64,000 bases of DNA, taken from contig CAIRNS010000002.1 in the NCBI GenBank assembly GCA_903880015.1, forward strand, positions 16,330 to 80,329, written 5' to 3'. Shown here in pieces: positions 10,401 through 61,304 of the stretch. Positions within the stretch are counted from its first letter, which is position 1. Every line of letters starts with the position of its first letter. The notes under the pieces were generated by a model that ran no database searches, had not been told where the DNA came from, and saw nothing but the letters and a program-made list of their open reading frames with translations. The position numbers and the translations under genes were made by a program. The stretch comes from an uncultured Elusimicrobia bacterium (GTDB lineage Bacteria > Elusimicrobiota > Endomicrobiia > Endomicrobiales > CAIRNS01).

Positions 10401-13400
10401 ATGACATTTATGACGGGGTTGAAGAACACACTGGGGAAGAAATTCGGCGTGCAGATGTTGATGGGGGCGATTTTTTTATCGGCACTGCTTATGGTTGCGG
10501 CGGGGAATGTTTGTGCCGAAGCTACGAAAAGAGTGTTGATACTTTACGATCAGGGGGCGGATAAGCGTGAGCCCGCTCTGACGGATGCTAAGTATCTCTC
10601 AAACCTGATGGGGCATTTCAACGCTACCGTGCGTTTGGCTCCGGTCGCCGCATATCAGCCGGGGACAATGGACCGCAACGACATTGTTTTTTATATTAAC
10701 TACGACAAGAAATTTACTTTGCCTACGGCGTTTAAAACGGATTTTTATCGATACAATAAGACCTTTTGCTGGTTAAATCATCACATCGCGCAGCTGGATC
10801 AGGAGTTCCTTAAAAAAACCTACGGATTCCATTATCAGGGATACAGCGAGAATCAGAAGTTCAATACTATTGACTACAAAAATGTCATCTTCCCGAAAGG
10901 CGATGACAATATCGAAATAGTGACCATAGACAATCCCGCTGTCGCCACAGTTATCTCTCACGCGTACGACCGAACCGGCAGGAAAATACCGTACATCGTG
11001 CATGCGAATAATTTCTGGTTCGTAGCTGATTCTCCCTTTTCTTATGCGACGGAACGCGACCGCTATATTGCCTTTGCCGATGTTCTGCATGATATTTTAA
11101 AGGAAGACCATCCGTCTCGCCATACGGCGCTCATCAGGATCGAGGACATCAGCCCCACCAGCGACGCCGATGCCGTTCGCCGCGTGGTGAACTACCTGCA
11201 CGGACAAAACATACCCTTTGCTATCGGCGTTGTTCCGCTATATATCGACCCCGCAGAGCGCACTGAACTTCATTTGTCCGATAATCCCAAACTGCTGGCG
11301 CTGTTGCGCGACATCCCGAAACACGGCGGGACCATTGTTCTCCACGGATATACTCATCAATATCACGGAAATTCCACGGACGACTATGAGTTTTGGGATG
11401 ACATCGCCGACAAACCGATTCGCGGGGATTCTGTTGAAAATGCATCTTTGCGCATCGAGAAATCCATTAAAGAATGTCTCGACAACAATCTGACACCACT
11501 GGCCTGGGAAACGCCGCACTATTTCGCTTCGCGCAACACCTATCTTGCCATCAAACAACATTTTAGCTGTGTCTTTGAGCGTTCGGGCACCATGGACCAC
11601 CTGGGCACTGACCAGTTTTTCCCCTATGAAGTGCATAATTTTTACGGCCAATTTGTCATCCCCGAGAATTGCGGATATGTGCCTATCGAAAAACCGGACG
11701 CTCAGCCAATCATCGACGCAGCGCGGCTCAATTTAACCGTGCGAGACGGGTACGCCAGCTTCTTCTTTCATCCGTTCATTGACCTGTCGTATCTCAAGAA
11801 AATCGTCACTTCGATTAAGGCAATGGGCTATGAATTTCGCGATATCAAAGACTTTTCTCCCCAGATGACCGCTCCTGACGCTGCCGTTATTTGCGGAAAC
11901 GCGAAAGTACTCATTACCACGCGGGACCGGTATATTTTCCAGCGCGAATATGATCGGACCGGCAAAGAAATAAAAGAAGATATTTTACAAAGCACCGGCA
12001 AACCGGTGACTATCAATGTCACCGCGCCGCAGGGTAACTTCTCTGTTATTAAACCTGCAGAAACGCTGGAACCGGGATTGATTGCCAGGGTCTGGCGATT
12101 CGCTAAAAAAGATTTTAATTTTTTCCGCTTTCTGCGTACCCCTAAACCGGGCGGGAAACTCAGCGAAATCAAAGATGTTGCTTTTATCGTCCCAACCGTA
12201 TACCCGCAGGATGTTGCTGATGCGCACGATTTGCAGTCATTCCGATTTTCCCTGTCCGTGGCCGGCATAAAGTTCAAAGACATAAAATCCGCGGATATTG
12301 CAGGCATGGACCTGCGGGATTACGATATTATTGTCGTACCGCTTGCTTCGGCGAAAACACTTTCACCCGACGCCATTGCCCACATTAAAGAAGCGGTTGG
12401 TTCGGGTGCGGGGCTGGTATTTGACGGCGCCAGCAAGATCAACGACGCCTTTGACATAAAAAACGCGGAAGACCCCATCAAAGTAAAACAAATACGCGAT
12501 TTCCAATTCCCGGATATTCCATTGTTTTGGCCGGCGCCGGTCGATGTATGGCCGGTCTATAAATCATCGGATAACGACTACCGCATTTTAGCCGTCGAAG
12601 ATTCATCGAATGCGACGCTGGTCATCAGCGGTAAATACGGCAACGGAACATTTTTATATTTTTCAACCTATTTTGACCCTTTGACCGACCGCGGATATAC
12701 GCGGTTTCCCTTTTTGATTGAAACGCTTGAAACCGTGTTCGATTATCAGTCGCTGACCGCGCGCAAAACCGTTGAAATGTATTTTGACCCGGGCATGCGG
12801 CAGTATATCAGCATCGAAAAACTCGCTAAACTCTGGCGGAAATACGGCATCAACAAGATTTATGCAGGCGGGTGGCATTTTTGGAACAAGTACACCTACG
12901 ACTATGCCCGTCTTATCAAGGTGTGCCATGAGAACGGCATTCTTGTCTATTGCTGGCTTGAACCTCCCATGGTCAACCAGAAATTCTGGAATCAACATCC
13001 TGAATGGCGTGAAAAGACAGCACAGCTCAAAGAGGGCAGTGGATCATGGCGACTGCTCATGAACCTCGCTGATCCTGCGTGCCGGGCAAAAGCATTTGAA
13101 GAGACAGATGATCTACTCTCTAAATACGATTGGGATGGCGTCAATGTCGCCGAACTTTATTTTGAATCAATGAGCGGTCCGGAACGACCCGACCTCTTCA
13201 CACCCATGAATAACACTGTGCGATCGGAATTTAAACAAAAATCCGGATTCGACCCCATAGAACTTTTCAGAGCGGAGAGCCCATACTATTGGAAAACAAA
13301 TGCTGCTGCATGGAATAAGTTTGCCATTTACCGCCGCGACCTGTGCACCGCGCTTAAGGTTTACTATCTTGACATGCTCGCGAAAGTGCAGAAAAAGAAA

Positions 13401-14396
13401 GGATCGTTTGAAGTCATTGTCACGGTAATCGACACCACTCTGGCGCCGGAATTCGAGTTATTCCTGGCTGAGGACATGGAGCGCATCCTGCAACTGCAAA
13501 AAAAATATGACTTTACGCTTCAGGTAGAAGATGCGTCCCCTTTCTGGACGGGGAAACCGGAACGCTATGCCCAGTTGGGCGACTACTACCAAAAAATCGT
13601 CAAGGATCCGACACGGCTTCAACTTGACTGCAATGTGCTTGATAACCACATAAAAGGCGCTGGCGGGTTGCCGGCTGAAAAACCCGTGGGCGAAGAAATG
13701 CGTCAGATTGCCTACAACATGGCGTTACCGGGGTGCCGTCCTGTCTTTTATTCGGAAGAAACCATCCGTGAATCGGATTTCAAAAACATCAGCACCGTTC
13801 TGGCGCGAGACGCCACTGTTACGAAAATTTCCGATAATCAATGGAGAGTTGTTACGCCGTCCATGATAACGCTGCATGCCGGGAAAAAGAATCTGGTTGT
13901 TTTTCTTGATAACGAACCATGGTACGCGATGGATGGTGATAGTATCATCGTTCCCGGCGGCGACCATACGCTCAGATTTGAACCTGAACCGCGGTATTTC
14001 GACATGAACAGCCTTCATGCGCGTCTTACCTATATTTCCGCCGATCTTACCTGGGCGAACTTTATCTCTAACGCCGTGGAATTCGCCTATCAAGCAGGCC
14101 CGTCGCCGTGCATTATCGTAGTCAATAAACGACCGGCAAAAGTATTTGTTGATGACAAGAAAATTGCTTTCACGGCACTTGAGTCCGACCATGGTTTCGC
14201 GATAAAACTTCCCAGCGGCACGCACAGCGTCCGTTTAGCCATGGGCGGCGGCATTGCGTATCTTATCGAATCATCCGGCGTTGTCATTTTTTCCCTTATC
14301 ATCATATTCGGTTTTTTTGCGAGCATTTTATTCATCGGGCTCTTTGTGTTGATACAGCTTAAAAGAAAATATTATAAAGGAAACACACCCACATGA
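10401..14396 (+). CDS. 1331-aa exported multidomain polysaccharide-modifying protein: DUF2334/deacetylase-like domain, flavodoxin/GATase-like domain, TIM-barrel glycoside-hydrolase-like domain, beta-sandwich, C-terminal TM anchor
   Basis: Signal peptide LSALLMVAAGNVCAEA. IRIEDISPTSD...IPFAIGVVPLY...HGYTHQY...WETPHY resembles DUF2334. WHFWNKYTYDY...LVYCWLEPP...WDGVNVAELYFE resembles GH-like TIM barrels. The terminal hydrophobic helix is followed by KRKYYK. Confidence 0.65.
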   Translation: MTFMTGLKNTLGKKFGVQMLMGAIFLSALLMVAAGNVCAEATKRVLILYDQGADKREPALTDAKYLSNLMGHFNATVRLAPVAAYQPGTMDRNDIVFYINYDKKFTLPTAFKTDFYRYNKTFCWLNHHIAQLDQEFLKKTYGFHYQGYSENQKFNTIDYKNVIFPKGDDNIEIVTIDNPAVATVISHAYDRTGRKIPYIVHANNFWFVADSPFSYATERDRYIAFADVLHDILKEDHPSRHTALIRIEDISPTSDADAVRRVVNYLHGQNIPFAIGVVPLYIDPAERTELHLSDNPKLLALLRDIPKHGGTIVLHGYTHQYHGNSTDDYEFWDDIADKPIRGDSVENASLRIEKSIKECLDNNLTPLAWETPHYFASRNTYLAIKQHFSCVFERSGTMDHLGTDQFFPYEVHNFYGQFVIPENCGYVPIEKPDAQPIIDAARLNLTVRDGYASFFFHPFIDLSYLKKIVTSIKAMGYEFRDIKDFSPQMTAPDAAVICGNAKVLITTRDRYIFQREYDRTGKEIKEDILQSTGKPVTINVTAPQGNFSVIKPAETLEPGLIARVWRFAKKDFNFFRFLRTPKPGGKLSEIKDVAFIVPTVYPQDVADAHDLQSFRFSLSVAGIKFKDIKSADIAGMDLRDYDIIVVPLASAKTLSPDAIAHIKEAVGSGAGLVFDGASKINDAFDIKNAEDPIKVKQIRDFQFPDIPLFWPAPVDVWPVYKSSDNDYRILAVEDSSNATLVISGKYGNGTFLYFSTYFDPLTDRGYTRFPFLIETLETVFDYQSLTARKTVEMYFDPGMRQYISIEKLAKLWRKYGINKIYAGGWHFWNKYTYDYARLIKVCHENGILVYCWLEPPMVNQKFWNQHPEWREKTAQLKEGSGSWRLLMNLADPACRAKAFEETDDLLSKYDWDGVNVAELYFESMSGPERPDLFTPMNNTVRSEFKQKSGFDPIELFRAESPYYWKTNAAAWNKFAIYRRDLCTALKVYYLDMLAKVQKKKGSFEVIVTVIDTTLAPEFELFLAEDMERILQLQKKYDFTLQVEDASPFWTGKPERYAQLGDYYQKIVKDPTRLQLDCNVLDNHIKGAGGLPAEKPVGEEMRQIAYNMALPGCRPVFYSEETIRESDFKNISTVLARDATVTKISDNQWRVVTPSMITLHAGKKNLVVFLDNEPWYAMDGDSIIVPGGDHTLRFEPEPRYFDMNSLHARLTYISADLTWANFISNAVEFAYQAGPSPCIIVVNKRPAKVFVDDKKIAFTALESDHGFAIKLPSGTHSVRLAMGGGIAYLIESSGVVIFSLIIIFGFFASILFIGLFVLIQLKRKYYKGNTPT

Positions 14397-15655
14397 TTAT
14401 CGACATTCTGGTAGAACTGCTGTACATTATCGTCGTAGCGCTTATCTGGGTTATGTTGGTGTATCAGGTTGTTCTGACCGCATCAGGATATCTTTACAGC
14501 CGCCGGAAGCTCAAAGGAAGTGCGATACCTGACGATCAACTGCCGCCGTTAACCATCATTATTCCGGCACGCAACGAAGAGCGGGTCATCGCCGAGACCG
14601 TGGCGTGCATGTTTCGCCTGGATTACCCTCACGACAAGCTTGAAGTGATTATCATCAACGACGGGTCAACCGACAGAACCGGCGCGATCCTTGCAGCAGT
14701 CAACGATCCGCGCTTAAAGGTCATTACTATCCCCTTAGCCGAAAGCGGCCAGGGAAAATCACGGGTACTTAATATCGCCGTCAAACAGGCAGCCGGCGAG
14801 CTGATAGCAATTTATGACGCTGACAACCGCCCCGAGCAAAACGCACTCAAGATACTGGTCAAGGAGCTTCTTGCTGACCGGCAGTTTATCGCAGCTATCG
14901 GCAAGTTCCGGACCATCAACCGCAACACATCCATCATGACTCGTTTTGTCAATATAGAGACCCAGGCGTTTCAGTGGATTATCCAGGCCGGACGCTCGTA
15001 TTTATTTGATATCGCGGTACTCCCCGGAACGAATTTTGTCATATGGAAAAATATCGTACTTGAGGCGGGTGGGTGGGACCACTCCGCGCTGACCGAGGAC
15101 GCGGAACTTTCCGCACGACTCTACCAGGCGGGACACGAGATTAAATTTGTCCCGCAGGCGGCCACCTGGGAGCAAGAGCCCGACACCGTGCGGGTGTGGC
15201 TTAAGCAACGCACCCGCTGGGTACGGGGAAACAATTATTTGCTGGTCAAATTATTGAAAGAATTTGGCAATTTCAAGAATAAAGCGATTGGCATTGAATT
15301 TCTTGCGTTCTCGATGATGTACTACCTTTTTTTTATTGCCATGCTGTTATCGAACATCTTTTTTGCGCTGGGCCTGCTTAATATCGTCACCATTCGTATT
15401 CAGGGGCCTTTTTTGGAACTCTGGATTGCCGCGTTTCTTCTGTTCGTCAGCGAGATCGTTCTCATGCTTTCACGAGAGCCAAACGAGGACAGCGCCAGCA
15501 ATATTTTTTATGTGATGGCAATGTATTTCACCTACTGTCAGCTCTGGCTGATTGTCGTCGTATCGGCATTCATCAAGGACTTCATAAAAAAAGAAAAGGC
15601 CGTCTGGTATAAAACCGAACGGACCGCAGAAATAAAATCAGCAGAAAATAAATAA
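14393..15655 (+). CDS. Processive family-2 glycosyltransferase (PgaC/IcaA/NodC/cellulose-synthase-like polysaccharide synthase)
   Basis: 420-aa ORF with IIIPARNEE, INDGSTD, YDADN, TEDAELS and QRTRWVRG (QxxRW), with TM helices on both sides. ATGA start/stop overlap with the upstream gene. Confidence 0.85.
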   Translation: MIIDILVELLYIIVVALIWVMLVYQVVLTASGYLYSRRKLKGSAIPDDQLPPLTIIIPARNEERVIAETVACMFRLDYPHDKLEVIIINDGSTDRTGAILAAVNDPRLKVITIPLAESGQGKSRVLNIAVKQAAGELIAIYDADNRPEQNALKILVKELLADRQFIAAIGKFRTINRNTSIMTRFVNIETQAFQWIIQAGRSYLFDIAVLPGTNFVIWKNIVLEAGGWDHSALTEDAELSARLYQAGHEIKFVPQAATWEQEPDTVRVWLKQRTRWVRGNNYLLVKLLKEFGNFKNKAIGIEFLAFSMMYYLFFIAMLLSNIFFALGLLNIVTIRIQGPFLELWIAAFLLFVSEIVLMLSREPNEDSASNIFYVMAMYFTYCQLWLIVVVSAFIKDFIKKEKAVWYKTERTAEIKSAENK

Positions 15656-23956: not shown

Positions 23957-24154
23957 CGTCAAATCCACCCCGCCCCTCCTTTGCCAAAGGAGGGAGTTAC
24001 ATCCCGGTCAATTGTTAAAATGTGTGACACATCTCGCTGGCACCATTGACGCTATGCTCTTTCCACGCCGGGGAGTTACTTCTCTTCTTTCTTCAAAACT
24101 TTCGCAGTTGATTCTATCCCCCTTTGACAAAGGGGGACACAGGGGGATTTGCCG
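23957..24154. repeat. Family-1 repeat element bounded by inverted ~38-nt modules
   Basis: Left module CGTCAAATCCACCCCGCCCCTCCTTTGCCAAAGGAGGG (23957-23994). Right module CCCCCTTTGACAAAGGGGGACACAGGGGGATTTGCCG (24118-24154) is in reverse orientation. Confidence 0.85.
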
Positions 24155-24764
24155 TTCGTATGCCCAAAATTGCCGATACGGATTTTTCAGGCACCATCTG
24201 GCAATGATCGGTCAGGCGAATGCCGATTTGGTCAGCGGCAAGCCATTTCAAAAAATCCAACTGAGCCGATAATCCCCAATCGCCATAGCCCGGCGAAAAC
24301 CGCGGGGTTGCTACCTGGTTGTCTTTGGCGACTTCCGCGCGGATGCTTTCGTGGGTGAGCTCTGCCAGTTCTTCGGCGGCCACGGAACCGATTGCGTCGA
24401 GTATCAGCGCGCGGAATGTTTCTTTTCGCGCAAGATACTGAGCGCGTTTTTCTTCCACATGCGGGCCGATGGTCACCGCAAATCCGTACGCGACCGTGCA
24501 GTCAGCGAGAAGTCCGGCAATATGCGCGCTGGATATTATCAAGCCGGGCTCAAGTGATATAAGGGATTTTCCCGGGCGATTGATCGGGGCGTGGGCGATG
24601 GCCTGGCGAGGGACAATAAGCTTGCGGGCGATGTCAGTTTCTTCAACTATCGCTGCGGCCGTTGCCGCATCCAACACCGTTTTCCCTTTTGAATATCCCA
24701 ACCGCGCCAGCACTGCGGGCGCGGGTATCTTCAAAAGAACTTCGTGCCGACGGTTGTCGCTCAT
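24114..24764 (-). CDS. Stand-alone methionine synthase reactivation (AdoMet-binding) domain protein
   Basis: 216-aa ORF. RFSPGYGDW and surrounding blocks match the MetH activation domain. The last ~14 codons (RTANPPVSPFVKGG) and the stop lie inside the family-1 repeat. Confidence 0.75.
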   Translation of the reverse strand: MSDNRRHEVLLKIPAPAVLARLGYSKGKTVLDAATAAAIVEETDIARKLIVPRQAIAHAPINRPGKSLISLEPGLIISSAHIAGLLADCTVAYGFAVTIGPHVEEKRAQYLARKETFRALILDAIGSVAAEELAELTHESIRAEVAKDNQVATPRFSPGYGDWGLSAQLDFLKWLAADQIGIRLTDHCQMVPEKSVSAILGIRTANPPVSPFVKGG

Positions 24765-24844: not shown

Positions 24845-24873
24845 TTGCCAATTACTTGTTAAAGAGATAAAAT
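24845..24873 (+). promoter_or_regulatory. Possible promoter of the PorV-like/NHL gene pair
   Basis: TTGCCA-N17-TAAAAT, about 40 nt upstream of the start. Confidence 0.35.
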
Positions 24874-24914
24874 AAGGAGTAATTTCTTTTTGCTTCGGCG
24901 CAGAGCGAGGGTTG

Positions 24915-25919
24915 ATGAAACGATGGACGCTGGTGACTGCATTACTGCTGGTGGCTGGCCCCGGATTTAGCGCCGGAACAACAGCTGCAAATTTCCTAAA
25001 AATCGGCGTTGGCGCCAGGAATGTTGCCCTGGGCGAAACCGGTGCGACGGAAAAAGGCGTTGATGCCGCCTATTGGAATCCGGCAGGACTTGCCGTTCTC
25101 CCCTCTCCGGCTGCCGGTTTTATGCATGCCCGCCAGTTTGACGATGTCACTTTCGAACATTTTGCCTTCGCCTACCCCGGCACCTGCGGCACCTGGGGAA
25201 TTTCCGCTGATTATCTGACGATGGACAATATAGAGAAGTATGACAACACGGGCACAAAAATGAATCAGTCCTATCGCCCGTCAGACATGGCTGTATCTTT
25301 GTCCTACGCGCGTATGCTCGGACGGATTCCCTGGGGCGTCAATCTTAAATATATCCGTTCGGCTATTGACGATGCGGCGGCGGATGCGTATGCCGTCGAT
25401 ACCGGACTTCTTTTCGACCGGTATCTGCCCAAAGATTTCAGCGGCGGATTCAGCGTGCAAAACATCGGGACATCCATGAAGTTTATCCAAGAGGCCTATC
25501 CCTTGCCGTTAAACATGCGCATGGGGCTCAGCTGGCGGGCAACCCCGCGCGTGACCATCGTCGCCGACGCCAACAAGGCGTCCGATACGGATATTGCCGG
25601 CAACGGCGGCGTCGAATACCTTTTGCCGGTCGGAAAGAACATTTCAATCGCCCCCCGCGCGGGATACAAAACCTCGGTCAAAGGCATTGACGGCATGGCA
25701 GGGATTACCGCGGGCATCGGTATTGTCGTCAACGCAATTACATTCGATTATGCGCTGGTTTCCTACGGCGATCTTGATAACGCTCAGCGCGTTTCCCTCA
25801 TATACCGGTTTGCACCGACTGTCCGCGTCAAGAAAGTGATTATAAAGAAGAATCCCCCGCATATGCCTGCGGATATCTATGATGATGCCGCGACCGTACG
25901 AAAATATAATGCGCACTAA
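24915..25919 (+). CDS. PorV/PorQ-family-like outer-membrane beta-barrel protein
   Basis: Signal peptide, then TTAANFLKIGVGARNVALGETGAT...AAYWNPAGLA, which is the characteristic PorV/PorQ N-terminal block. Alternating beta-strand pattern. An internal beta-signal-like VSLIYRF is followed by a 32-aa tail. The ATG at 24915 is preferred over the TTG at 24912. Confidence 0.7.
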   Translation: MKRWTLVTALLLVAGPGFSAGTTAANFLKIGVGARNVALGETGATEKGVDAAYWNPAGLAVLPSPAAGFMHARQFDDVTFEHFAFAYPGTCGTWGISADYLTMDNIEKYDNTGTKMNQSYRPSDMAVSLSYARMLGRIPWGVNLKYIRSAIDDAAADAYAVDTGLLFDRYLPKDFSGGFSVQNIGTSMKFIQEAYPLPLNMRMGLSWRATPRVTIVADANKASDTDIAGNGGVEYLLPVGKNISIAPRAGYKTSVKGIDGMAGITAGIGIVVNAITFDYALVSYGDLDNAQRVSLIYRFAPTVRVKKVIIKKNPPHMPADIYDDAATVRKYNAH

Positions 25920-28900
25920 ACGATCGTTTCCTCTATCTTGCAAATCAATAACTCTGGGAACATCCCTCCTCATCGGGCTGTGCGCGGTGGTCCATGCCGG
26001 TATCCTTACCGGAAGCGCCAACGGCGTCCTCGGTGAGCCGGACTATACGCACACCAGTTCCTACGGGGGAACTCAGAATGGCATGTACCATCCTTACTCT
26101 GTCGCGATAGATACAACTAATAACCGGCTCTTTGTGAGCGAATATGACAATAATCGCATCCTCTGGTGGAACAATGCATCTTCGCTGACTGACGGCGTCG
26201 GCAACGGCACGCCGGCGGACGGCGTGCTGGGTCAGGCGAATTTCATCGCCAACACATCCAACCGCGGCAACGGCACAACGCCGAGTCAAAGCTCATTTTA
26301 CAACCCACGCGGCATCGCCACCGACGCGACCGGGAAACTGTGGGTTGCGGATTATTTCAATAATCGTGTCTTATGTTTCGATTTGTCTGTATCAACATTC
26401 AATGCCTGCTATGTTCTGGGCCAGGCAAATTACTCATCTGCGGTCGTCGCCAGAACTCAAACTGCGCTTACCGGACCCTACGGCGTGACGGTAGACCATG
26501 CCGGCAATATCTGGGTGGCGGACGCCATTAATAACCGTGTCCTGCGCTACAATGGTTCTATCATTGCCAGCAGCATGCCCGCTGACATTGTTTTGGGAAC
26601 ATCAACATTTACGGGCTTGGCGGGGTCGGGGGACATGACTGCCAATGCGCTTATCCGCCCCAGCAGCGTCAAGGTCGACGCTGCCGGCAATGTATATGTC
26701 GCCGAATATACCAATAACCGCGTCGTCCAGTTCACGGCGCCCATCAGCAGCGGCATGGCTTCGTCCGTCGTTTTGGGACAGTCAGGATATGGACTGAAAA
26801 CTCTTGCAACAACACAAAGCGGTATGGTAACCCCCTATGATATTTCTCTCGACGGCAGCGGCAATGTGTGGGTTGCCATGTACCAAGTCTCCGGCACTTT
26901 CGGCTCACGGATAGTCCGGTACTCTCTGCCGTTAGCATCCGGCATGAATGCCGATTTTGTCATCGGGCAATCGGGCTTTACCAATGCGGGCTATAACCGT
27001 ACCGCCGGTTCAGCGGGGGCGGCGGTAGCCAACGGATTGGCAAGACCGAACGGGATGGCGTTCGATCAATCAGGACGAATGTGGATTGCCGATAACAACA
27101 ATAATCGCGTTCTCCGCTACGATCTTTCCACTTCGACACACACAGCCGGACTGGTCCTGGGACAAAATGACTTTACGCATAAACAGGAAAACCAGATAGA
27201 CGGCAAAACTCTTTACAACCCTTATTCTGTTGCCGTCGATACGACTACTAACAGAGTGTTTGCCGCTGATTTAGGCGGCTGCCGGGTGCTCTGGTGGAAC
27301 AATCAAGACTCGTTCACGAATGGCGCCGCCGCTGACGGGGTGTTGGGACAAAACAGTTTCACCGATTATTCCGCTAACCGCGGACTTACCGTTTCCTCAG
27401 ACACATTGAACGCCTCCGCCAGGGTAATGATTGATCCTGCGGGCGATATCTGGGTGGCCGATAGCAGCAACAACCGGGTGCTCAGATATCACGGTGCATC
27501 GCTGACCAGCGGCATGCCGGCCGACCTCGTCTTGGGCCAACTAAACTTCGTGTCGAACTCTGCTGGAACAGCAACCAGCACCAGCCTTTCAGGCCCCTCC
27601 AGCGTCCGGTGTGACCGGGAAGGAACCATCTGGGTGGTGGATTCAGGATACCACCGCGTGCTCAAATACAAAAAATATTCTGATATGGCGAATACTGAGC
27701 CGGCGGTTCATGTGCTGGGCCAGTCCGTCATGACTGCCGGACTAAAGAATCGCGACAACAGTTTAACGGCAAACCAAAACAGTTTCTACCAGCCGACAGA
27801 TATAGGTTTTGACATCAATAATGCCCCATGGATAGTCGATGGCAACAATAATCGGGTACTGTTATTTTCCAGCGGCACGATTACCGACGGCATGAACGCG
27901 GCGTATGTAGTCGGGCAAACAGATTTTATCGGCCATGCCGCATCGACCGCGACCCTGCAAGGACTGAACCTACCCTACGGCATTACGTTTGACCGCGATG
28001 AACGGGCATGGATTTCAGACGGCGGCAATGCGCGCATCATGTGTTACGGGCCGGTCACGGCGAATGCGCCAAGCGCGGCGGTAACGCTCGGCCAGTCAGG
28101 ATTGGATCAATATTCCCTGAAAAATCCGCGAGGAATACTATCTGATCCGCAGGGTTCTCTGTGGGTCGCCGACGGGGATAATAATCGATTGTTAAAATTC
28201 AACGGACTGTCGATTGCCGGCGTCTCGCCCACCCAGGGCTCCGTCAGCAGCGGTGCAATGACTGCCGTCCTCACCGGCACGGATTTCAGCCCATCGGTAC
28301 AAGTCCGCCTTGAGCGCGCCGGACAGACCGCTATTGTCTCTTCCAGCGTGACCGTAACCGGCGAAACGGGATTGTCCGCAACATTTTCTCTCACGGGCGC
28401 TACCACCGGATACTGGGATGTTGTGACATCGACGCGGGGTTTTTCCGCGCGGAGCTCCAACGCGATACTGCTGGTTTCCAGCGCAGCCGCACAATCCGAT
28501 TTAAACAATGTTGTCGAAAATATACTGACATTCACCGTCGGAACCGTCCAGATCACCCTTGATATCCCCGGCGGGACATTCAACGATGCATTTACCATTG
28601 CCTGCATTGCCGGAACGCAGTCGGCGGGACTAAACCAATCCGGCTTTTTTGCAACCCCTATCGCTCTCGAAATCACCAATTCAAAAGGACTCCAGCCGCT
28701 GAGCGCCATGACCATCACCGTCGCCTACGCCGATGCCGATGTCGCCGGCATGGATGAATCAAAACTGACCATTTGCTATTATGACACGGCGCGGGCGCGC
28801 TGGATACAGGTTCCCTCAATACCGGACCCGCTCAACAATAAGATTACCGGAACGATTAATCATTTATCTTCGTTTAGGGTCTTCGCGCGGGTACCCTTGT

Positions 28901-29208
28901 TGACGCTCGCTGACGCCGTTGCGTATCCCAATCCCTACAAACCCGGTTCAGGAACTTCCTACGACGATTCCGTTATGGGAAAAGGCATTGTGTTCGGCAA
29001 TATCACGGAGAACGCGCGGATACGCATATTCACCATTTCCGGCGAGCTGGTAAAAGATATTTCCGTTACCGGAAGCAACGGGACATGCGTGTGGGACGCC
29101 ACCAACGACAACGGCGATAAAGTCGCTTCGGGCGTTTTTCAGTATTTCATCACCAACCCCGACAACAGTTCTCAAAAAGCCAAAGGGAAGATAGCGGTCA
29201 TCCGCTGA
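25909..29208 (+). CDS. Secreted NHL-repeat beta-propeller protein with Ig-like domains and a T9SS-type/FlgD-Ig-like C-terminal domain
   Basis: More than 12 repeats of the NNRV(L/I)(R/W)(Y/W) type, and an IPT-like segment (SPTQGSVSSG...). The C-terminus is VAYPNPYKPG...ARIRIFTISGELVKDI...CVWDATNDNGDKVASGVFQYFI...KGKIAVIR. The start is uncertain: 25879 or 25909 in the same frame. Either choice overlaps the PorV-like gene. Confidence 0.75.
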   Translation: MRTKRSFPLSCKSITLGTSLLIGLCAVVHAGILTGSANGVLGEPDYTHTSSYGGTQNGMYHPYSVAIDTTNNRLFVSEYDNNRILWWNNASSLTDGVGNGTPADGVLGQANFIANTSNRGNGTTPSQSSFYNPRGIATDATGKLWVADYFNNRVLCFDLSVSTFNACYVLGQANYSSAVVARTQTALTGPYGVTVDHAGNIWVADAINNRVLRYNGSIIASSMPADIVLGTSTFTGLAGSGDMTANALIRPSSVKVDAAGNVYVAEYTNNRVVQFTAPISSGMASSVVLGQSGYGLKTLATTQSGMVTPYDISLDGSGNVWVAMYQVSGTFGSRIVRYSLPLASGMNADFVIGQSGFTNAGYNRTAGSAGAAVANGLARPNGMAFDQSGRMWIADNNNNRVLRYDLSTSTHTAGLVLGQNDFTHKQENQIDGKTLYNPYSVAVDTTTNRVFAADLGGCRVLWWNNQDSFTNGAAADGVLGQNSFTDYSANRGLTVSSDTLNASARVMIDPAGDIWVADSSNNRVLRYHGASLTSGMPADLVLGQLNFVSNSAGTATSTSLSGPSSVRCDREGTIWVVDSGYHRVLKYKKYSDMANTEPAVHVLGQSVMTAGLKNRDNSLTANQNSFYQPTDIGFDINNAPWIVDGNNNRVLLFSSGTITDGMNAAYVVGQTDFIGHAASTATLQGLNLPYGITFDRDERAWISDGGNARIMCYGPVTANAPSAAVTLGQSGLDQYSLKNPRGILSDPQGSLWVADGDNNRLLKFNGLSIAGVSPTQGSVSSGAMTAVLTGTDFSPSVQVRLERAGQTAIVSSSVTVTGETGLSATFSLTGATTGYWDVVTSTRGFSARSSNAILLVSSAAAQSDLNNVVENILTFTVGTVQITLDIPGGTFNDAFTIACIAGTQSAGLNQSGFFATPIALEITNSKGLQPLSAMTITVAYADADVAGMDESKLTICYYDTARARWIQVPSIPDPLNNKITGTINHLSSFRVFARVPLLTLADAVAYPNPYKPGSGTSYDDSVMGKGIVFGNITENARIRIFTISGELVKDISVTGSNGTCVWDATNDNGDKVASGVFQYFITNPDNSSQKAKGKIAVIR

Positions 29209-29230
29209 TTATTTTCCGAAAAGGAATACT

Positions 29231-43526: not shown

Positions 43527-44822
43527 CTATGATGTATGCTTGCTTTTCTTGTTGTTTTTCCTGATGGGGCTTTTCTTGGAGCCGTTGTCTTCACGAATCA
43601 GTTCTTTTGTTCGCTCGCCCGTTACTATCATTTTCCCGCTCTTTTGATGTCCGTTGATATCGGAAATCAAATAAAAATACTCGCCCACGCCGACATTGAC
43701 ATCATTATCATTTTTCCCGTCCCAGGTGGCTTTATGGCTCACGCCATCGTTCCCGGCAGTTCCCGGCCTGATACTTTTCACCAATTTACCGGACATATCA
43801 AATATCCGTATCACTGCATCCTTGGGGATATGTTTGAAATGCAGGGTTCCGGTTTCTTCAGTCGAAAAATCAACCGGGTTCGGATACACGGCAATGCCGG
43901 ACAAAGGACGCCCTCCCAGCCCCGTCTTAAAGGCGTATCCCATGGACAGCATATGCGACCCGCCTATGTCGCCATACATGCCGAACGCATAATCAAACTT
44001 CATTTGTTGCCAGGTAATGCCTAATCCGAGATGTATACCAGAAATTCCGCCTGTCTCAGGACGGGTATTAAAGCCATCCCTGATAACCATTCCTTTTGCG
44101 ATTCTGTTCTCCATGCCGACGCCAAAAGACGGTTTACCGGACGGCGGGTAGTCCGCGTCCACGGCAATGCTCATAAACTGTTTGGGAAGAACTATGCTGC
44201 ACCCTAATTTCACATTGCTCGGTAAATCATTGCCTTTTATCTGACCGCCCATATTTTGAACTGCCATCCCCATGCGGAACATATCCGTAAAAAAATAGCT
44301 GGCGCCGACATCGCCGGCAAACCCCGAGGCAGAAACGACATCTATTGTCTGATTGATGCTCTTGGCACTGAATCCTAATGCTAATTTTCTGCCTATTTGT
44401 TTACCCCATCCGAACAAAACAGCGTACTCCATGCTGCCAAATGTTTGTCCGGTGGCTTGATAGTTCCCTGCAATATCTTCCGTGGTCTTGGCAATATCCC
44501 CCGTATAGAGCGATAGCGCACCTGCGGAAAATGTGCCATAGGCGGTCGGTTCAGCATATGCCATGTAATCATATTTTATGTCCTGAACATACTCCATATG
44601 CGTAAAGTCCACCACGGTTTTTTGGAGCCGCCCCAGATTTGCCGGATTCCAATACAGAGCATAGCCATCGATGACATCAGCCACGCCGGTTTCTCCCATC
44701 CCTGACGCTCGGGCGCCCGGGCCGATGGCCAAAAATTGAGCCGCAGTTGACCCCGTTCCCTTGGCATACGCCAAAGAACTTATGACGGCAATAATCACTG
44801 CGGCGATACGAAAACTTTTCAT
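43527..44822 (-). CDS. PorV/PorQ-like outer-membrane barrel fused to a T9SS-type/FlgD-Ig-like C-terminal domain and a Lys-rich tail
   Basis: Signal peptide, then GSTAAQFLAIGPGARASGMGETGVAD...ALYWNPANLG. The barrel ends at SMGYAF. Next comes IAVYPNPVDFS...IRIFDMSGKLVKSIRPGTAGNDGVSHKATWDGKND...YFYLISD..GHQKSGKMIV, then a KKSPIRKNNKKSK tail. Confidence 0.7.
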   Translation of the reverse strand: MKSFRIAAVIIAVISSLAYAKGTGSTAAQFLAIGPGARASGMGETGVADVIDGYALYWNPANLGRLQKTVVDFTHMEYVQDIKYDYMAYAEPTAYGTFSAGALSLYTGDIAKTTEDIAGNYQATGQTFGSMEYAVLFGWGKQIGRKLALGFSAKSINQTIDVVSASGFAGDVGASYFFTDMFRMGMAVQNMGGQIKGNDLPSNVKLGCSIVLPKQFMSIAVDADYPPSGKPSFGVGMENRIAKGMVIRDGFNTRPETGGISGIHLGLGITWQQMKFDYAFGMYGDIGGSHMLSMGYAFKTGLGGRPLSGIAVYPNPVDFSTEETGTLHFKHIPKDAVIRIFDMSGKLVKSIRPGTAGNDGVSHKATWDGKNDNDVNVGVGEYFYLISDINGHQKSGKMIVTGERTKELIREDNGSKKSPIRKNNKKSKHTS

Positions 44823-46540
44823 TTTACTACCCCGATTTTGCCGGTTTTTTTGTGACCGGGTTCATCGGTGATTAGATACAGGTACAATCCCATGCTGACA
44901 CCGTCACCATCCTCGTTTTTTCCGTTCCATTCGGCCCTGCCGCTGATACCATCGTTTTCTGCCGTCCCGGGCTTGAGAGTTTTCACCAATCCGCCGGTCA
45001 CATCGAATATCTGTACCTTTGCGCTATCGGTGAGATTGTCAAACTTTAACTTCCCGCGAACCGCTGTCTCAAAGCAAACCGGGTTCGGATATACAACAAC
45101 ACCGGACAAATCTGTCACTGCATTGGAAAGCGATGAGCCCGTATATGCTTTCAGACATACATTGGTATTGGTGTAAACAGTAGTAATATCACCCCATGCA
45201 GCGCCATCATGACTGATATAACTTTGCCCCGCAGCGGCAGTTGGACTGCTATAGCCGGAGATAGGATATTCCAGAGGGATGGGATAAGCGTACCCGGGGG
45301 TGGTCATTTTTACCACAACGCAAAAGGTCCGGTTGGCGCTGATAGGGATCGAGGAATCAAGCCGGATGGTATGATATCCGGTGACGGGAATCGTTCCGGT
45401 TTTTTTTCCTAATAATCCCGAAAACGACGACCCGCTAAAACTGTCATACACATATATCTCATAGGTTGCGTCCATCGCCGTAGAATAAAAACCTACTGCA
45501 TCTAACTGGTCATTGGAAGTTGCTGTAAAAACATTGGCGAACCACCCGGTAGTAGAGGAATACCCGGCCGCCGTACTCATGCCCAGCGGATCATACTGAT
45601 ATATGTGTTGATAGTTCCCATTTCTTTCAAAAACCGCGTTATCGGTGCCTATGTTAGTATCATAATAGGAAACATAGAAATAACCGGCATTGCCCCAGCT
45701 TGACCCCCAACTGTTTTTGACGATAAAGGCGCCATTGCCCGGCGGAACCGTGGAAAAATTTGTTTTATCATAATTGTCATCCCATCCGACTAACGCTACG
45801 CCATGATTGCTCACTGCTGTACCGCTGTAATAATATGCGGCATTGATTGGGTTGTAATATGTGGCACCTATATTCATGTATATAGAGGTCATAACAGCGC
45901 CTACATCGGTAATCATTTGCTTTATGTTGTCGTTGTCCGACACACTACTTCTGTCCGGGATAAAGAGTGCTTCTTGCACATGTGCTTGTACTGCTGATCC
46001 TGGGGGAGACCCGCCCTTGTTGGGATAGGGATCGTCGGATTCATACACCGGCCCGCCCCATCTGGTGAGATATGCCGTTGACATCCCATACGTACCGCCG
46101 CCGTCATAGCCAAGATCGAACCCGGAGAGATTTACAAGATTGTTTTCTGAAAAATCTTGTGTGTCGAGGGGTAAAAAATATGATTCCAATGCGCTGTAGG
46201 TGGCGAATGCCCAGCAGGTATTGTAAGCGCCCTGATCTCTAATCGGGGTAACCTTTCCCTGGCTGCGCAGATCATACGACGCAAGGTACCCGAGGGGCGC
46301 AGGTAGGCCATTGAGCCGTTTCGCCATGCGTTTCCCTCTGGTGTGGGAAAAATCTACCGGCGAAGGAATTAATCCTGAAGCATGATTATTTGTTGACTGT
46401 TTTGGTGCTTTTCCCTGCTGCATGTCGATCAAATAATTTTTGAACCCCGCGCTGACAGGGGCGCACTGCATGTCGGCATATGCAAACATACCTGGCCCCA
46501 TCAGTACAATCATAATAAAAGAGATGGCTTTTTTCTTCAT
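44819..46540 (-). CDS. Secreted papain-like (C1 family) cysteine peptidase with a T9SS-type/FlgD-Ig-like C-terminal domain
   Basis: Signal peptide MKKKAISFIMIVLMGPGMFAYA and the catalytic Cys motif DQGAYNTCWAFATYSALE. NHGVALVGWDD and VKNSWGSSWG match papain-family blocks (His region and the NSWG block). C-terminal VVVYPNPVCF...VQIFDVTGGLVKTLKPGTAENDG...WNGKNEDGD...YLYLITD..GHKKTGKIGVVK. The start is moved to Met34 (46540), and there is an ATGA overlap with the downstream PorV-like gene. Confidence 0.8.
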   Translation of the reverse strand: MKKKAISFIMIVLMGPGMFAYADMQCAPVSAGFKNYLIDMQQGKAPKQSTNNHASGLIPSPVDFSHTRGKRMAKRLNGLPAPLGYLASYDLRSQGKVTPIRDQGAYNTCWAFATYSALESYFLPLDTQDFSENNLVNLSGFDLGYDGGGTYGMSTAYLTRWGGPVYESDDPYPNKGGSPPGSAVQAHVQEALFIPDRSSVSDNDNIKQMITDVGAVMTSIYMNIGATYYNPINAAYYYSGTAVSNHGVALVGWDDNYDKTNFSTVPPGNGAFIVKNSWGSSWGNAGYFYVSYYDTNIGTDNAVFERNGNYQHIYQYDPLGMSTAAGYSSTTGWFANVFTATSNDQLDAVGFYSTAMDATYEIYVYDSFSGSSFSGLLGKKTGTIPVTGYHTIRLDSSIPISANRTFCVVVKMTTPGYAYPIPLEYPISGYSSPTAAAGQSYISHDGAAWGDITTVYTNTNVCLKAYTGSSLSNAVTDLSGVVVYPNPVCFETAVRGKLKFDNLTDSAKVQIFDVTGGLVKTLKPGTAENDGISGRAEWNGKNEDGDGVSMGLYLYLITDEPGHKKTGKIGVVK

Positions 46541-46669
46541 GGTTTCATTCCGCTTTTTTCCCCATCTCCTGCATCCCCTTACCTGACATGTCGGGATGTC
46601 CGCGCCCTTGAAAGAATTTACATGTATCTTTCCGTACATCTTGACCTACTGCGTGCGACTAGTTTAGCT

Positions 46670-56966: not shown

Positions 56967-57121
56967 AACACCGTTTGAATTTTTTTTTCTGATAAGTTAT
57001 ATTATTATCAGCGTCAGAAAAACAATGAAACCAATCAATCTTGGCATTGGCATGTATTATATCAACAGGGCATAAACCACATACCGTGCAGCTGTTGAAA
57101 ACTTTTACAGGAGGGCATGTT

Positions 57122-58117: not shown

Positions 58118-58136
58118 CGCGGGAATCCGTTGAGAA

Positions 58137-59042: not shown

Positions 59043-59072
59043 ATGGATGCTGTCTTGGTTGGCGTTGTTATT

Positions 59073-59188
59073 GTAGGGGCGGGCCTTGCGTCCGCCCGCA
59101 ATAGTGTTTTTCGAGATTTAAGGGAACTGGTTTTGGGGATCACCAACACGGTAACACCTGATCGGGCGGACGCGAGGCCTGCCCCTAC
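59073..59188 (+). repeat. Family-3 long inverted repeat (26-nt GC-rich arms, 64-nt loop) inside the MoxR/Bat operon
   Basis: GTAGGGGCGGGCCTTGCGTCCGCCCG (59073-59098) pairs with CGGGCGGACGCGAGGCCTGCCCCTAC (59163-59188). Read on the plus strand this gives 24 Watson-Crick pairs and 2 G:U pairs. Confidence 0.85.
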
Positions 59189-59212
59189 AAACGACAGACA
59201 TTTAACTATATC

Positions 59213-61095: not shown

Positions 61096-61102
61096 CAAGG
61101 CA

Positions 61103-61285: not shown

Positions 61286-61304
61286 GTGACGGAACTATAC
61301 TATT

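What the first reader, a model, noticed from the sequence alone, without database searches (positions are those of the whole stretch)
24845..29208. Second PorV-like barrel coupled to a giant NHL-propeller protein with a related C-terminal domain, in the opposite gene order
A PorV/PorQ-like barrel (24915-25919) overlaps the start of a ~1100-aa secreted NHL-repeat protein (start 25879 or 25909). That protein's last ~95 aa carry a variant of the CTD seen at 43.5-46.5 kb: YPNPY...RIRIFTISGELVK...W.A.NDNGDKVASGVFQYFI...KGKIAVIR. There are therefore two independent PorV-like/CTD-cargo pairs within 20 kb, one ordered barrel then cargo and the other cargo then barrel, and both are translationally coupled. 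This suggests each cargo has a private outer-membrane partner, unlike the single shared PorV of described T9SS. This barrel also has a 32-aa extension after its beta-signal-like VSLIYRF.
Basis: partly seen in the sequence, partly recalled or inferred. Interest (0 to 1): 0.65.

Follow-up and report, generated by a model that had tools for sequence, protein, structure and literature searches.

The report
Dedicated PorV-like barrel with CTD cargo
A freshwater Endomicrobiales bacterium, outside the phyla known to use type IX secretion, encodes an outer-membrane barrel of the PorV/PorQ family overlapping a giant NHL-propeller protein whose tail resembles the retained anchor domains of PorZ and PorU; this barrel-plus-tail gene pairing recurs across many uncultivated phyla and most likely docks one specific protein on the cell envelope.

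Summary
Window 24915-25919 encodes a signal-peptide-bearing 14-strand barrel. It passes the NCBIfam PorV/PorQ family model (167.7 bits, cut-off 90) but fails the PorV, PorQ and PorV2 equivalog cut-offs. Its best fold matches are PorV chains (TM 0.66-0.68), ahead of FadL/TodX (0.55). The next gene (ATG 25909, 11-nt overlap) encodes an NHL-repeat protein of about 1100 aa. Its last 100 aa are 33-37% identical to the CTDs at 43.5-46.6 kb.

The host is Endomicrobiales (Elusimicrobiota), not Bacteroidota. The pairing is not chance: 64 of 95 related barrels have an adjacent same-strand CTD gene, against 4-14 expected. In Elusimicrobiota loci the figure is 26 of 30.

- Cognate barrel-CTD pairs are already known (PorQ-PorZ, PorV-PorU, PorP/SprF with type-B CTDs).
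- In a CTD-centred sample only 16% of CTD genes have a barrel beside them.
- The two "independent" loci lie in one cluster in a relative.

Best reading: a dedicated docking barrel for its neighbour's retained CTD, working like PorQ-PorZ. How the cargo crosses the outer membrane is unresolved. No T9SS core gene lies in the roughly 80 kb surveyed. I rate it a new variant of a known kind.

The parts
24845..24873 (+). Promoter-like site (TTGCCA-17-TAAAAT, 10 of 12) about 40 nt upstream of the barrel start
   Evidence: The number of such sites in the region is not above the shuffled expectation, so this is positional support only.
24915..25919 (+). Barrel 1 gene: PorV/PorQ-family outer-membrane beta-barrel, 334 aa (alternative TTG start at 24912)
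   Evidence: NF033709 167.7 bits, cut-off 90; AF2 pLDDT 89.1, pTM 0.83; PorV 8gl6_F and 6h3i_F are the top fold matches; profile vs PorV E 2.8e-32.
24915..24974 (+). Sec signal peptide of barrel 1 (residues 1-20, ...GFSA|GTT)
   Evidence: Read from the sequence. The family HMM match starts at residue 23.
24975..25811 (+). N-terminal helical plug-like segment plus about 14 transmembrane strands, ending in the beta-signal VSLIYRF (residues 21-299)
   Evidence: secondary structure, pLDDT above 90 throughout; most homologues end at this F.
25812..25916 (+). Clade-specific 35-aa C-terminal tail, predicted disordered, with conserved NPPHMPAD motif; inferred to be periplasmic
   Evidence: present only in the window, P0002, P0003 and P0004; pLDDT below 55. 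Periplasmic location is inferred from OmpA/TPR fusions at the same end in relatives.
25909..25919 (+). 11-nt overlap between the barrel stop and the cargo start (ATGCGCACTAA)
   Evidence: Tight junctions are also seen in L001 and L005, each with a 2-nt gap.
25909..29208 (+). Cargo gene: secreted NHL-repeat protein, 1099 aa from ATG 25909 (1109 aa from ATG 25879)
25909..25998 (+). Sec signal peptide of the cargo (MRTKRSFPLSCKSITLGTSLLIGLCAVVHA)
   Evidence: Read from the sequence.
26080..28218 (+). NHL beta-propeller region (approximate bounds; 7 NHL stretches, two TEN_NHL stretches)
   Evidence: NHL 156.8 bits; TEN_NHL 84.3 bits; ScyF/ScyE-like NHL matches, no PorZ match.
28219..28905 (+). Spacer of about 230 aa between the propellers and the CTD; no confident family
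   Evidence: only a faint choice-of-anchor Z repeat hit, E 0.21.
28906..29205 (+). C-terminal domain (100 aa), PorZ-type CTD, NHL subtype (YPNPYKPGSG insertion)
   Evidence: PorZ 5m11 E 7e-7, PorU 6za2 E 3e-5; PorZ C-terminus 61.8 bits; TIGR04183 only 11.4 bits.
29192..29217 (+). Terminator-like hairpin and T-rich tail overlapping the cargo stop codon
   Evidence: positional support only.
44819..46639 (-). Second pair, cargo: papain-family C1 peptidase plus lectin-like domain plus CTD (CTD at 44822-45109)
   Evidence: Peptidase_C1 90.2 bits, Lectin_like 177 bits.
43527..44822 (-). Second pair, barrel 2: PorV/PorQ-family barrel (residues 25-298) fused to its own peptidase-subtype CTD (43620-43904) and a Lys-rich tail; 4-nt overlap with the peptidase gene
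   Evidence: NF033709 134.5 bits; TIGR04183 24.5 bits; 32% identity to barrel 1; AF2 pLDDT 85.3.

Best explanation
Window 24915-29208 is a two-gene unit of a freshwater Endomicrobiales (Elusimicrobiota) bacterium.

Gene 1 makes a Sec-exported 14-strand outer-membrane barrel of the PorV/PorQ family, with a short periplasmic tail. Gene 2 overlaps it by 11 nt. It makes a Sec-exported NHL-propeller protein of about 1100 aa that ends in a 100-aa beta-sandwich domain. That domain is most like the CTDs of PorZ and PorU, which are retained rather than cleaved.

Most likely the barrel is the dedicated docking partner of its neighbour's CTD. It would hold the propeller protein non-covalently on the cell envelope in roughly 1:1 amounts. 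PorQ holds PorZ in this way, PorV holds PorU, and PorP/SprF-like barrels hold type-B CTD proteins.

Shown here: family and fold of the barrel, homology of the CTD, conserved synteny, statistical linkage of barrels to CTD genes, co-inheritance of barrel type with CTD subtype, and the host phylum.

Inferred: physical binding of the CTD to the barrel, retention of the CTD, surface exposure of the cargo, and translational coupling.

Not resolved: how the cargo crosses the outer membrane. The route could be a SprA-like translocon encoded elsewhere, or something else.
For: Barrel identity:
- NF033709 scores 167.7 bits against a cut-off of 90.
- The AF2 model has pLDDT 89 and shows a plug plus about 14 strands.
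- The best PDB folds are PorV 8gl6_F and 6h3i_F at TM 0.68 and 0.66, against FadL/TodX at about 0.55.
- The barrel profile hits PorV at E 2.8e-32 and TodX at 6e-5.

CTD:
- It is 33-37% identical to the other window CTDs.
- The CTD profile's best PDB matches are the PorZ and PorU C-terminal domains.
- The CTD alone scores 61.8 bits on PorZ's C-terminus.
- PMC10202324 states that the PorZ and PorU CTDs are retained to bind PorQ and PorV.

Linkage:
- The barrel-then-NHL order is conserved in L001 (barrel 59-61% identical) and L005 (46-47%).
- NHL-CTD cargo also sits next to barrels in L013, L031 and L063, in the opposite order.
- 64 of 95 barrels have an adjacent same-strand CTD gene against 3.9-13.5 expected. 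In Elusimicrobiota loci the figure is 26 of 30.
- Passenger domains vary (NHL, C1 peptidase, CARDB/Big_5, LamG/fn3, PQQ-like propeller, M6 protease) while the CTD is constant. The CTD is therefore what the barrel is linked to.
- CTD subtype tracks barrel type.

Rosetta-stone type evidence:
- Barrel 2 and its orthologues are fused to a CTD.
- Other family members are fused at the C-terminus to OmpA, TPR or CarboxypepD_reg domains. PorE has the same domain set, and PorE ties the PorP barrel with its type-B CTD cargo to peptidoglycan (PMC9143113).
Against: - No binding, localisation or expression data exist, and no RNA run holds the locus.
- The known PorQ-PorZ and PorP-cargo anchors all depend on the SprA/Sov translocon to get the cargo outside. 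No T9SS core gene was seen in about 80 kb of this genome, and the rest of the genome could not be searched.
- Barrel 2's fused CTD follows the last strand after a linker of only 6-9 aa. It should therefore lie in the periplasm, whereas PorV binds CTDs through its extracellular loops (PMC10994853). Docking might thus happen on the periplasmic side.
- Most CTD genes sampled from metagenomes have no adjacent barrel, so a private barrel is not a general requirement.
- Poribacteria barrels of the same family almost never have a CTD neighbour (1 of 11).
- The NHL CTD fails the curated type-A and type-B CTD models.
Confidence: 0.55

Rival explanations
1. Periplasmic tether. The CTD never crosses the outer membrane. 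The barrel, or its periplasmic tail, binds the CTD at the inner face of the outer membrane, so the NHL protein and the C1 peptidase are periplasmic enzymes or binders parked under the outer membrane.
For: Barrel 2 carries a folded CTD 6-9 residues after its last strand. Relatives carry OmpA or TPR domains at the same end, which places that end, and hence the fused CTD, in the periplasm. Barrel 1 has a conserved periplasmic tail found only in the NHL-partnered clade. No translocon gene was found nearby.
Against: In every studied case CTD proteins are surface-exposed or secreted, and PorV binds CTDs with its extracellular loops (PMC10994853, PMC9143113). Passengers such as CARDB/Big_5, LamG/fn3 and 2000-3000-aa repeat proteins look like surface adhesins. 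The fusion in barrel 2 is confined to one small clade.
Confidence: 0.15
2. Specialised carrier within a complete T9SS encoded elsewhere in the genome. Each barrel docks on a SprA-like translocon, collects only its cognate cargo and carries it away, exactly as PorP/SprF-like shuttles do for type-B substrates.
For: The closest structural relative is PorV in the SprA complex. Cognate shuttle logic is established for type-B CTDs (PMC12618676). Many of the same barrel-CTD pairs occur in FCB-group genomes that are expected to have a T9SS. Only about 80 kb of this genome could be inspected.
Against: The host is Endomicrobiales. I found no paper reporting a T9SS in Elusimicrobia or Endomicrobia, and reviews restrict the system and CTD proteins to Bacteroidota or the FCB group (PMC10202324, PMC11205867). 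No core gene lies in the surveyed sequence. The CTD resembles retained CTDs rather than cleaved ones.
Confidence: 0.2
3. Self-sufficient two-partner export. The PorV-like barrel itself mediates passage of its cognate cargo across the outer membrane as well as anchoring it, without SprA.
For: Tight 1:1 genetic coupling occurs in a phylum not known to have a T9SS. In L110 and L113 a CTD protein is instead followed by a stand-alone autotransporter beta-domain, which is a true translocator type. This hints that the neighbouring barrel may supply the export function.
Against: A plugged 14-strand FadL-type barrel has no known capacity to pass a folded or unfolded 1100-aa protein. PorV is a carrier, not a pore (PMC10994853). 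There is no direct evidence.
Confidence: 0.07
4. The barrel is a FadL/TodX-type channel for a hydrophobic substrate, and the adjacency reflects metabolic coupling with a neighbouring enzyme. Alternatively, the adjacency is fortuitous.
For: The barrel belongs to the FadL superfamily. NHL/SGL-type propellers can be lactonases or lyases.
Against: Fold and sequence similarity are much stronger to PorV than to FadL/TodX, and barrel 1 has no Pfam Toluene_X hit. The neighbour's constant feature is the CTD, not any enzyme family. Adjacency is 5- to 16-fold above chance.
Confidence: 0.03

Closest known systems
PorQ-PorZ pair of the Porphyromonas gingivalis T9SS attachment complex
   Same: A PorV/PorQ-family barrel is partnered with one specific propeller-containing protein through an uncleaved CTD. 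Barrel 1's best equivalog score is to PorQ (106.2 bits). The NHL CTD's best match anywhere is PorZ's CTD.
   Different: Barrel 1 misses the PorQ cut-off (220 bits). The NHL passenger shows no PorZ similarity outside the CTD. To my knowledge porQ and porZ are not adjacent genes in P. gingivalis, which I did not test here. The host is Endomicrobiales, and no SprA/PorU context has been shown.
PorV-PorU (sortase held on PorV by its retained CTD)
   Same: A cysteine peptidase with a retained-type CTD sits next to a PorV-family barrel, which mirrors the window's C1 peptidase-barrel 2 pair. The PorU CTD is the second-best PDB match of the CTD profile.
   Different: The peptidase here is papain-family C1 plus a lectin-like domain, not the PorU sortase (no NF033707 passenger match). 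Barrel 2 carries its own CTD.
PorP/SprF-like barrels with type-B CTD cargo (and PorE)
   Same: The logic matches: cargo genes are linked to their own barrel genes, the barrel anchors the cargo, and some cargo proteins are orphans that share a barrel (PMC9143113, PMC12618676). The PorE domain set (TPR, CarboxypepD_reg, OmpA) appears here fused to the barrels themselves.
   Different: The barrel family differs, with no PorP/SprF match for barrel 1. The CTD class differs too: TIGR04131 scores 13.4 bits against a cut-off of 35.
Canonical PorV, the general type-A CTD carrier on the SprA translocon
   Same: It is the best structural match (8gl6_F, 6h3i_F) and the best sequence match in the PDB.
   Different: Barrel 1 scores 74.4 bits against the equivalog cut-off of 250. 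Canonical PorV serves all type-A cargo (PMC12618676), whereas these barrels are linked one-to-one with a neighbouring gene.
NCBIfam 'PorV2' (NF052325) and 'T9SS-dependent M6-like inactivated metalloprotease' (NF052323)
   Same: The model names suggest that curators already recognise a PorV paralogue and a T9SS-dependent M6-like protein. L037 shows an M6-like CTD protein directly upstream of a PorV/PorQ-family barrel.
   Different: Barrel 1 scores 55 bits against the PorV2 cut-off of 325. I found no publication describing PorV2.
FadL/TodX hydrophobic-substrate channels and Treponema UPF0164
   Same: They share the 14-strand plugged barrel superfamily.
   Different: Similarity is much weaker (TM about 0.55; E 6e-5), and these channels have no known CTD partners.

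Membership tests
PorV/PorQ family (NCBIfam NF033709) | Whole-protein HMM score above the curated cut-off (90 bits) | tested here: met
   Barrel 1 scores 167.7 bits over residues 23-300. Barrel 2 scores 134.5 bits.
PorV/PorQ family (NCBIfam NF033709) | Signal peptide plus a FadL-type 14-strand barrel with an N-terminal plug | tested here: met
   The AF2 model has pLDDT 89.1 and pTM 0.83, with about 14 transmembrane strands after a helical N-terminal segment. The top PDB folds are PorV chains.
PorV proper (NF033710 equivalog) | Score of at least 250 bits | tested here: not met
   74.4 bits, and only the N-terminal two-thirds align.
PorV proper (NF033710 equivalog) | Docks on the SprA/Sov translocon and carries many type-A substrates | not testable with these tools
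Genetic linkage to a single neighbour argues against a general carrier.
PorQ (NF033711 equivalog) | Score of at least 220 bits | tested here: not met
   106.2 bits, which is the best of the three equivalogs but still below the cut-off.
PorV2 (NF052325 equivalog) | Score of at least 325 bits | tested here: not met
   55.2 bits.
FadL/TodX transporters (Pfam PF03349) | Pfam Toluene_X match, and closest fold being FadL/TodX | tested here: not met
   Barrel 1 has no Toluene_X hit at E <= 0.1. FadL/TodX give TM about 0.55 against 0.66-0.68 for PorV. The profile E-value is 6e-5 against 2.8e-32.
T9SS type-A CTD (TIGR04183 Por_Secre_tail) | Score of at least 23 bits on the C-terminal domain | tested here: not met
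   The NHL CTD scores 11.4 bits, E 0.24. For comparison, barrel 2's CTD scores 24.5 (met) and the peptidase CTD 20.7.
T9SS type-B CTD (TIGR04131) | Score of at least 35 bits | tested here: not met
   13.4 bits.
T9SS CTD superfamily (beta-sandwich sorting/anchor domain, FlgD_ig-like) | Significant homology to solved T9SS CTDs, located at the extreme C-terminus of a Sec-exported protein | tested here: met
   The CTD profile hits the PorZ CTD (5m11 residues 669-757, E 7e-7) and the PorU CTD (6za2 residues 1055-1139, E 3e-5). The PorZ C-terminus scores 61.8 bits. The domain ends at the last residue. The beta-sandwich fold is predicted for the paralogous CTD of barrel 2.
Type IX secretion system (whole machine) | Presence of core genes SprA/Sov, PorK/L/M/N (GldK-N), PorU and PorT in the genome | not testable with these tools
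   None are present among the window ORFs scanned or in the contig flanks, record 8.5-88.6 kb. The remaining genome of GCA_026388035.1 could not be scanned. I found no literature report for Elusimicrobia.
Cognate barrel-CTD anchoring pairs (functional class: PorQ-PorZ, PorV-PorU, PorP/SprF-type B) | Genetic linkage of one barrel to one CTD protein beyond chance | tested here: met
   64 of 95 barrels are adjacent against 3.9-13.5 expected, P <= 6e-32. The pair is conserved in L001 and L005.
Cognate barrel-CTD anchoring pairs (functional class: PorQ-PorZ, PorV-PorU, PorP/SprF-type B) | Physical barrel-CTD complex with an uncleaved CTD | not testable with these tools
   Only single-chain structure prediction was available. 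Indirect support comes from barrel-CTD fusions and from the resemblance to retained CTDs.

The most novel reading that the evidence does not exclude
PorV/PorQ-type barrels paired with PorZ-type CTD proteins may form an autonomous surface-display or anchoring module that works without the T9SS. It would be widespread in Elusimicrobiota and other non-FCB candidate phyla. On this reading the module is older than, or independent of, the SprA-based T9SS and could be the evolutionary source of the T9SS attachment complex. It would imply an as yet unknown route for moving large CTD proteins across the outer membrane.
Probability: 0.2. Interest if true: 0.8.

Novelty: new variant of a known kind. Interest (0 to 1): 0.55.

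Why it matters
Current T9SS reviews state that CTD proteins are restricted to Bacteroidota and that all type-A CTDs use the single carrier PorV. Dedicated barrels are described only for type-B cargo and for PorZ and PorU.

Here a PorV/PorQ-family barrel is wired one-to-one to a PorZ-type-CTD protein in Endomicrobiales. The same wiring recurs in most related barrels across many uncultivated phyla, and some of those barrels carry PorE-like peptidoglycan-binding or TPR domains in the same polypeptide.

If these genomes lack SprA, then barrel-CTD docking is an older, self-standing way to decorate the cell envelope, and the export route is unknown. If they do have SprA, the T9SS extends beyond the FCB superphylum and uses cognate carriers for type-A-like signals. 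Either outcome can be tested with a genome census and a simple co-expression or pull-down experiment. The finding would also help annotate thousands of 'PorV/PorQ family' and 'FlgD Ig-like' proteins in metagenome-assembled genomes.

Tried and rejected
1. Canonical porU-porV. The roughly 1150-aa cargo upstream of barrels in FCB-group loci (cluster 0) looked like PorU. It has no NF033707 match and no Pfam or NCBIfam match at all, so this was rejected.

2. Attachment-complex analogue (C1 peptidase as PorU, NHL double propeller as PorZ). The PorZ similarity is confined to the CTD, and the passenger regions show no PorZ or PorU match. I kept this only as a functional analogy.

3. FadL-type transporter. 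Rejected on fold and profile scores.

4. Tail as an assembly or frameshift artefact. Rejected, because the tail and its motif are conserved in three independent homologues and the locus is held by about 20 metagenomes.

5. Laxer barrel threshold to rescue 'orphan' CTD genes. No extra hits appeared between E 1e-4 and 0.1. The downstream ORFs of about 340-400 aa are unrelated genes: an ATPase, a GGDEF protein, an IS110 transposase, an AI-2E transporter and HisD.

6. Searches that failed technically. The 48-sequence barrel alignment and the 7-sequence CTD alignment were too divergent for the search for related loci, so I used narrower alignments.

7. Co-transcription. No RNA run holds the locus.

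8. Geometry of barrel 2's CTD relative to the barrel.

9. Literature on T9SS in Elusimicrobia or Endomicrobia, and on 'PorV2'. Nothing relevant was found.

Full report
**1. What is in the sequence**

The two ORFs exist as described. Barrel 1 runs from ATG 24915 (or TTG 24912) to 25919 and has a cleavable signal peptide, MKRWTLVTALLLVAGPGFSA. The cargo ORF runs to 29208. Its ATG at 25909 opens a classical signal peptide and overlaps the barrel's last 11 nt. A promoter-like site (24845-24873) and a terminator-like hairpin (29192-29207) bracket the two genes. Their number in the region is not above the shuffled expectation, so they give positional support only.

**2. The barrel**

- NCBIfam places it in the PorV/PorQ family (NF033709, 167.7 bits, cut-off 90). 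It falls below the equivalog cut-offs for PorQ (106 vs 220), PorV (74 vs 250) and PorV2 (55 vs 325). Pfam PorV is just under threshold (26.3 vs 27) and there is no FadL/Toluene_X hit.
- An AlphaFold2 model built on 48 homologues is confident (pLDDT 89.1, pTM 0.83). It shows a helical N-terminal plug-like segment, about 14 transmembrane strands and a disordered tail.
- Foldseek ranks two PorV chains from SprA translocon complexes first (8gl6_F at TM 0.68, 6h3i_F at 0.66), ahead of TodX/FadL at about 0.55.
- The family profile hits PorV at E 2.8e-32 and TodX at 6e-5.
- The tail after the beta-signal F299 is 35 aa long. It is shared, with an NPxHM(P)AD motif, only by the three closest homologues (P0002-P0004). 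Nearly all other members end at the aromatic residue.

**3. The cargo**

- It has seven NHL stretches (156.8 bits) and two teneurin-type NHL regions. The passenger resembles ScyF/ScyE-type NHL proteins and nothing in the T9SS.
- Its last 100 aa are 37% and 33% identical to the CTDs of the C1 peptidase and of barrel 2 at 43.5-46.6 kb.
- Against curated models this CTD fails type A (TIGR04183, 11.4 vs 23) and type B (TIGR04131, 13.4 vs 35). It matches the C-terminus of PorZ strongly (61.8 bits, E 4.5e-17) and that of PorU weakly.
- A profile of seven CTDs finds the PorZ CTD (5m11, E 7e-7) and the PorU CTD (6za2, E 3e-5) as its best solved relatives, followed by FlgD.
- According to PMC10202324, PorZ and PorU are the two T9SS proteins whose CTDs are not cleaved and serve to hold them on PorQ and PorV.

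**4. Host**

- The window's SerRS is 83% identical to an Endomicrobiales MAG protein, and every named hit is Endomicrobia or Elusimicrobiota.
- The window is part of GCA_026388035.1 contig JAPLKM010000002.1, and the locus occurs in many lake and freshwater metagenomes.
- Reviews restrict the T9SS and CTD proteins to Bacteroidota or the FCB superphylum (PMC10202324, PMC11205867). I found no paper on a T9SS in Elusimicrobia.
- No T9SS core gene lies in the window ORFs I scanned or in the contig flanks, about 80 kb in all. The rest of the genome could not be searched.

**5. Is the pairing real?**

- In a relative (L001, barrel about 60% identical) the genes lie in one cluster beside the same MetH-activation-domain gene as in the window. 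The order is C1 peptidase-CTD then barrel, C1 peptidase-CTD then barrel-CTD, and barrel then NHL-CTD. The window's two loci are therefore one ancestral cluster split by rearrangement.
- The barrel-then-NHL order recurs in an Endomicrobiales MAG (L005).
- I built barrel and CTD HMMs and scanned six-frame ORFs of the window plus 82 non-redundant loci fetched through barrel homology, 1.3 Mb in total.
- The window has exactly two barrels and three CTD ORFs, all in the two pairs.
- Overall, 64 of 95 barrels have an adjacent same-strand CTD gene, against 3.9 expected (13.5 under a conservative background; P 7e-65 or 6e-32).
- In Elusimicrobiota-labelled loci the figure is 26 of 30 barrels, and 28 of 32 CTD ORFs are adjacent to or fused with a barrel. 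In Poribacteria it is only 1 of 11.
- Cargo-then-barrel is the usual order (58 pairs), and barrel-then-cargo is rarer (13).
- Passengers are diverse: NHL, C1 peptidase, CARDB/Big_5, LamG/fn3, a PQQ-like propeller, an M6 protease, and a family of about 1150 aa with no known domain. The CTD is the constant element.
- All ten partner barrels I sampled are generic NF033709 members below every equivalog cut-off.
- CTDs split into an NHL subtype and a peptidase subtype that follow barrel type. Barrel 1's four nearest relatives are all NHL-partnered.

**6. The converse test**

- I started from NHL-type CTDs in metagenome contigs. Only 17 of 93 CTD ORFs with enough downstream sequence have a barrel just downstream, 1 of 69 has one just upstream, and 10 of 61 assessable on both sides have either (16%).
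- Among the closest CTDs (at least 44% identical) about half are paired.
- Relaxing the barrel threshold adds nothing, and the neighbours of the orphans I checked are unrelated genes.
- Most barrels of this clade are thus tied to one cargo, but most CTD proteins are not tied to a barrel. This mirrors the type-B CTD/PorP-SprF situation in Flavobacterium johnsoniae, where some substrates have cognate shuttles and orphans share one (PMC12618676).

**7. Mechanism**

The best-supported reading is that barrel 1 is the dedicated docking partner of its neighbour's retained CTD, working like PorQ-PorZ, PorV-PorU or PorP-type-B-cargo complexes (PMC9143113, PMC10202324).

Extra support comes from gene fusions:
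- Barrel 2 and its orthologues carry a CTD.
- Other family members carry C-terminal OmpA, TPR or CarboxypepD_reg domains. This is the domain set of PorE, which links the PorP barrel and its cargo to peptidoglycan (PMC9143113).

Two things remain unexplained:
- First, the export route in a phylum with no known SprA.
- Second, barrel 2's CTD follows the last strand after only 6-9 residues and should be periplasmic, whereas PorV binds CTDs through its extracellular loops inside SprA (PMC10994853). This keeps a periplasmic-tether model alive.

**8. Verdict**

Dedicated partners are real and widespread, but they are not unprecedented, not universal for CTD proteins, and the two loci are not independent.
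- I rate this a new variant of a known kind, of moderate to good interest. The interest lies mainly in where the pairing occurs (outside the FCB group) and in what it implies about the origin of the T9SS attachment and anchoring modules.

Noticed in passing
window 43527-44822 (minus strand); CTD at 43620-43904: Barrel 2 is a PorV/PorQ-family barrel fused to its own peptidase-subtype CTD plus a Lys-rich tail of about 30 aa. The fusion is conserved only in the closest clade (P0122, P0123, P0125). With a 6-9-aa linker after the last strand, the CTD should be periplasmic, which is hard to reconcile with PorV-style binding on the extracellular loops.
   Followed up: partly
L001 1760-12547 (also L002-L004): In a relative, two C1-peptidase-CTD/barrel pairs and the barrel/NHL-CTD pair are contiguous, next to the MetH-activation-domain gene that also flanks barrel 1 in the window (24114-24764). 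The window's 20-kb separation is therefore a rearrangement of a single cluster.
   Followed up: yes
L006 9992-11977, L027, L032, L039, L073 (TPR); L025 9426-10880, L048 1960-3864 (OmpA); P0006, P0009, P0010 (CarboxypepD_reg): Many PorV/PorQ-family barrels in Elusimicrobiota and neighbouring phyla carry C-terminal TPR, OmpA or CarboxypepD_reg-like domains. PorE, the periplasmic partner of the PorP barrel, has the same domain set.
   Followed up: partly
L040, L041, L047, L058, L059, L062, L070, L072, L075, L081-L083 and others (cargo ORF just upstream of the barrel at about 10001): A conserved CTD protein of about 1000-1200 aa with no Pfam or NCBIfam match (not PorU) sits directly upstream of a generic PorV/PorQ-family barrel. 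It occurs in Ignavibacteria, Rhodothermales, Bacteroidota, Marinimicrobia, Zixibacteria, Calditrichaceae and one Poribacteria genome (21 loci).
   Followed up: partly
L110 6274-7446 and L113 6274-7443: A stand-alone autotransporter beta-domain protein (PF03797, E 5e-35 and 4e-37, about 390 aa) starts 16 nt after a CTD protein of about 1140 aa. This is a different barrel type coupled to a CTD cargo.
   Followed up: no
L007, L010-L012, L015, L017, L018, L023, L066: Poribacteria encode close homologues of barrel 1 (35-38% identity) that have no adjacent CTD gene (1 of 11 paired). Family membership therefore does not by itself imply a private cargo.
   Followed up: no
window 46785-48313 (minus strand): Upstream of the C1 peptidase on the same strand lie a 206-aa signal-peptide protein with no family match (47693-48313) and a VWA-domain protein (46785-47708). 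They overlap by 16 nt and may belong to the same operon as the peptidase and barrel 2.
   Followed up: no
window 10401-15655: A 1331-aa DUF2334 protein with a weak melibiase-like region overlaps by 4 nt a PgaC/IcaA-like GT2 glycosyltransferase (14393-15655). This looks like an exopolysaccharide synthesis or modification pair.
   Followed up: no
window 57041-64000 and L171 5787-14324: This is a Bat/MoxR-type operon: MoxR AAA ATPase, DUF58, VWA proteins (BatA/BatB-like), a TPR protein, BatD and a further TPR protein.
   Followed up: no
L005 1-6963: An Endomicrobiales MAG encodes a giant protein (annotated as 9137 aa, no Pfam hit on record) about 1 kb upstream of, and divergent from, its barrel-NHL pair.
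   Followed up: no
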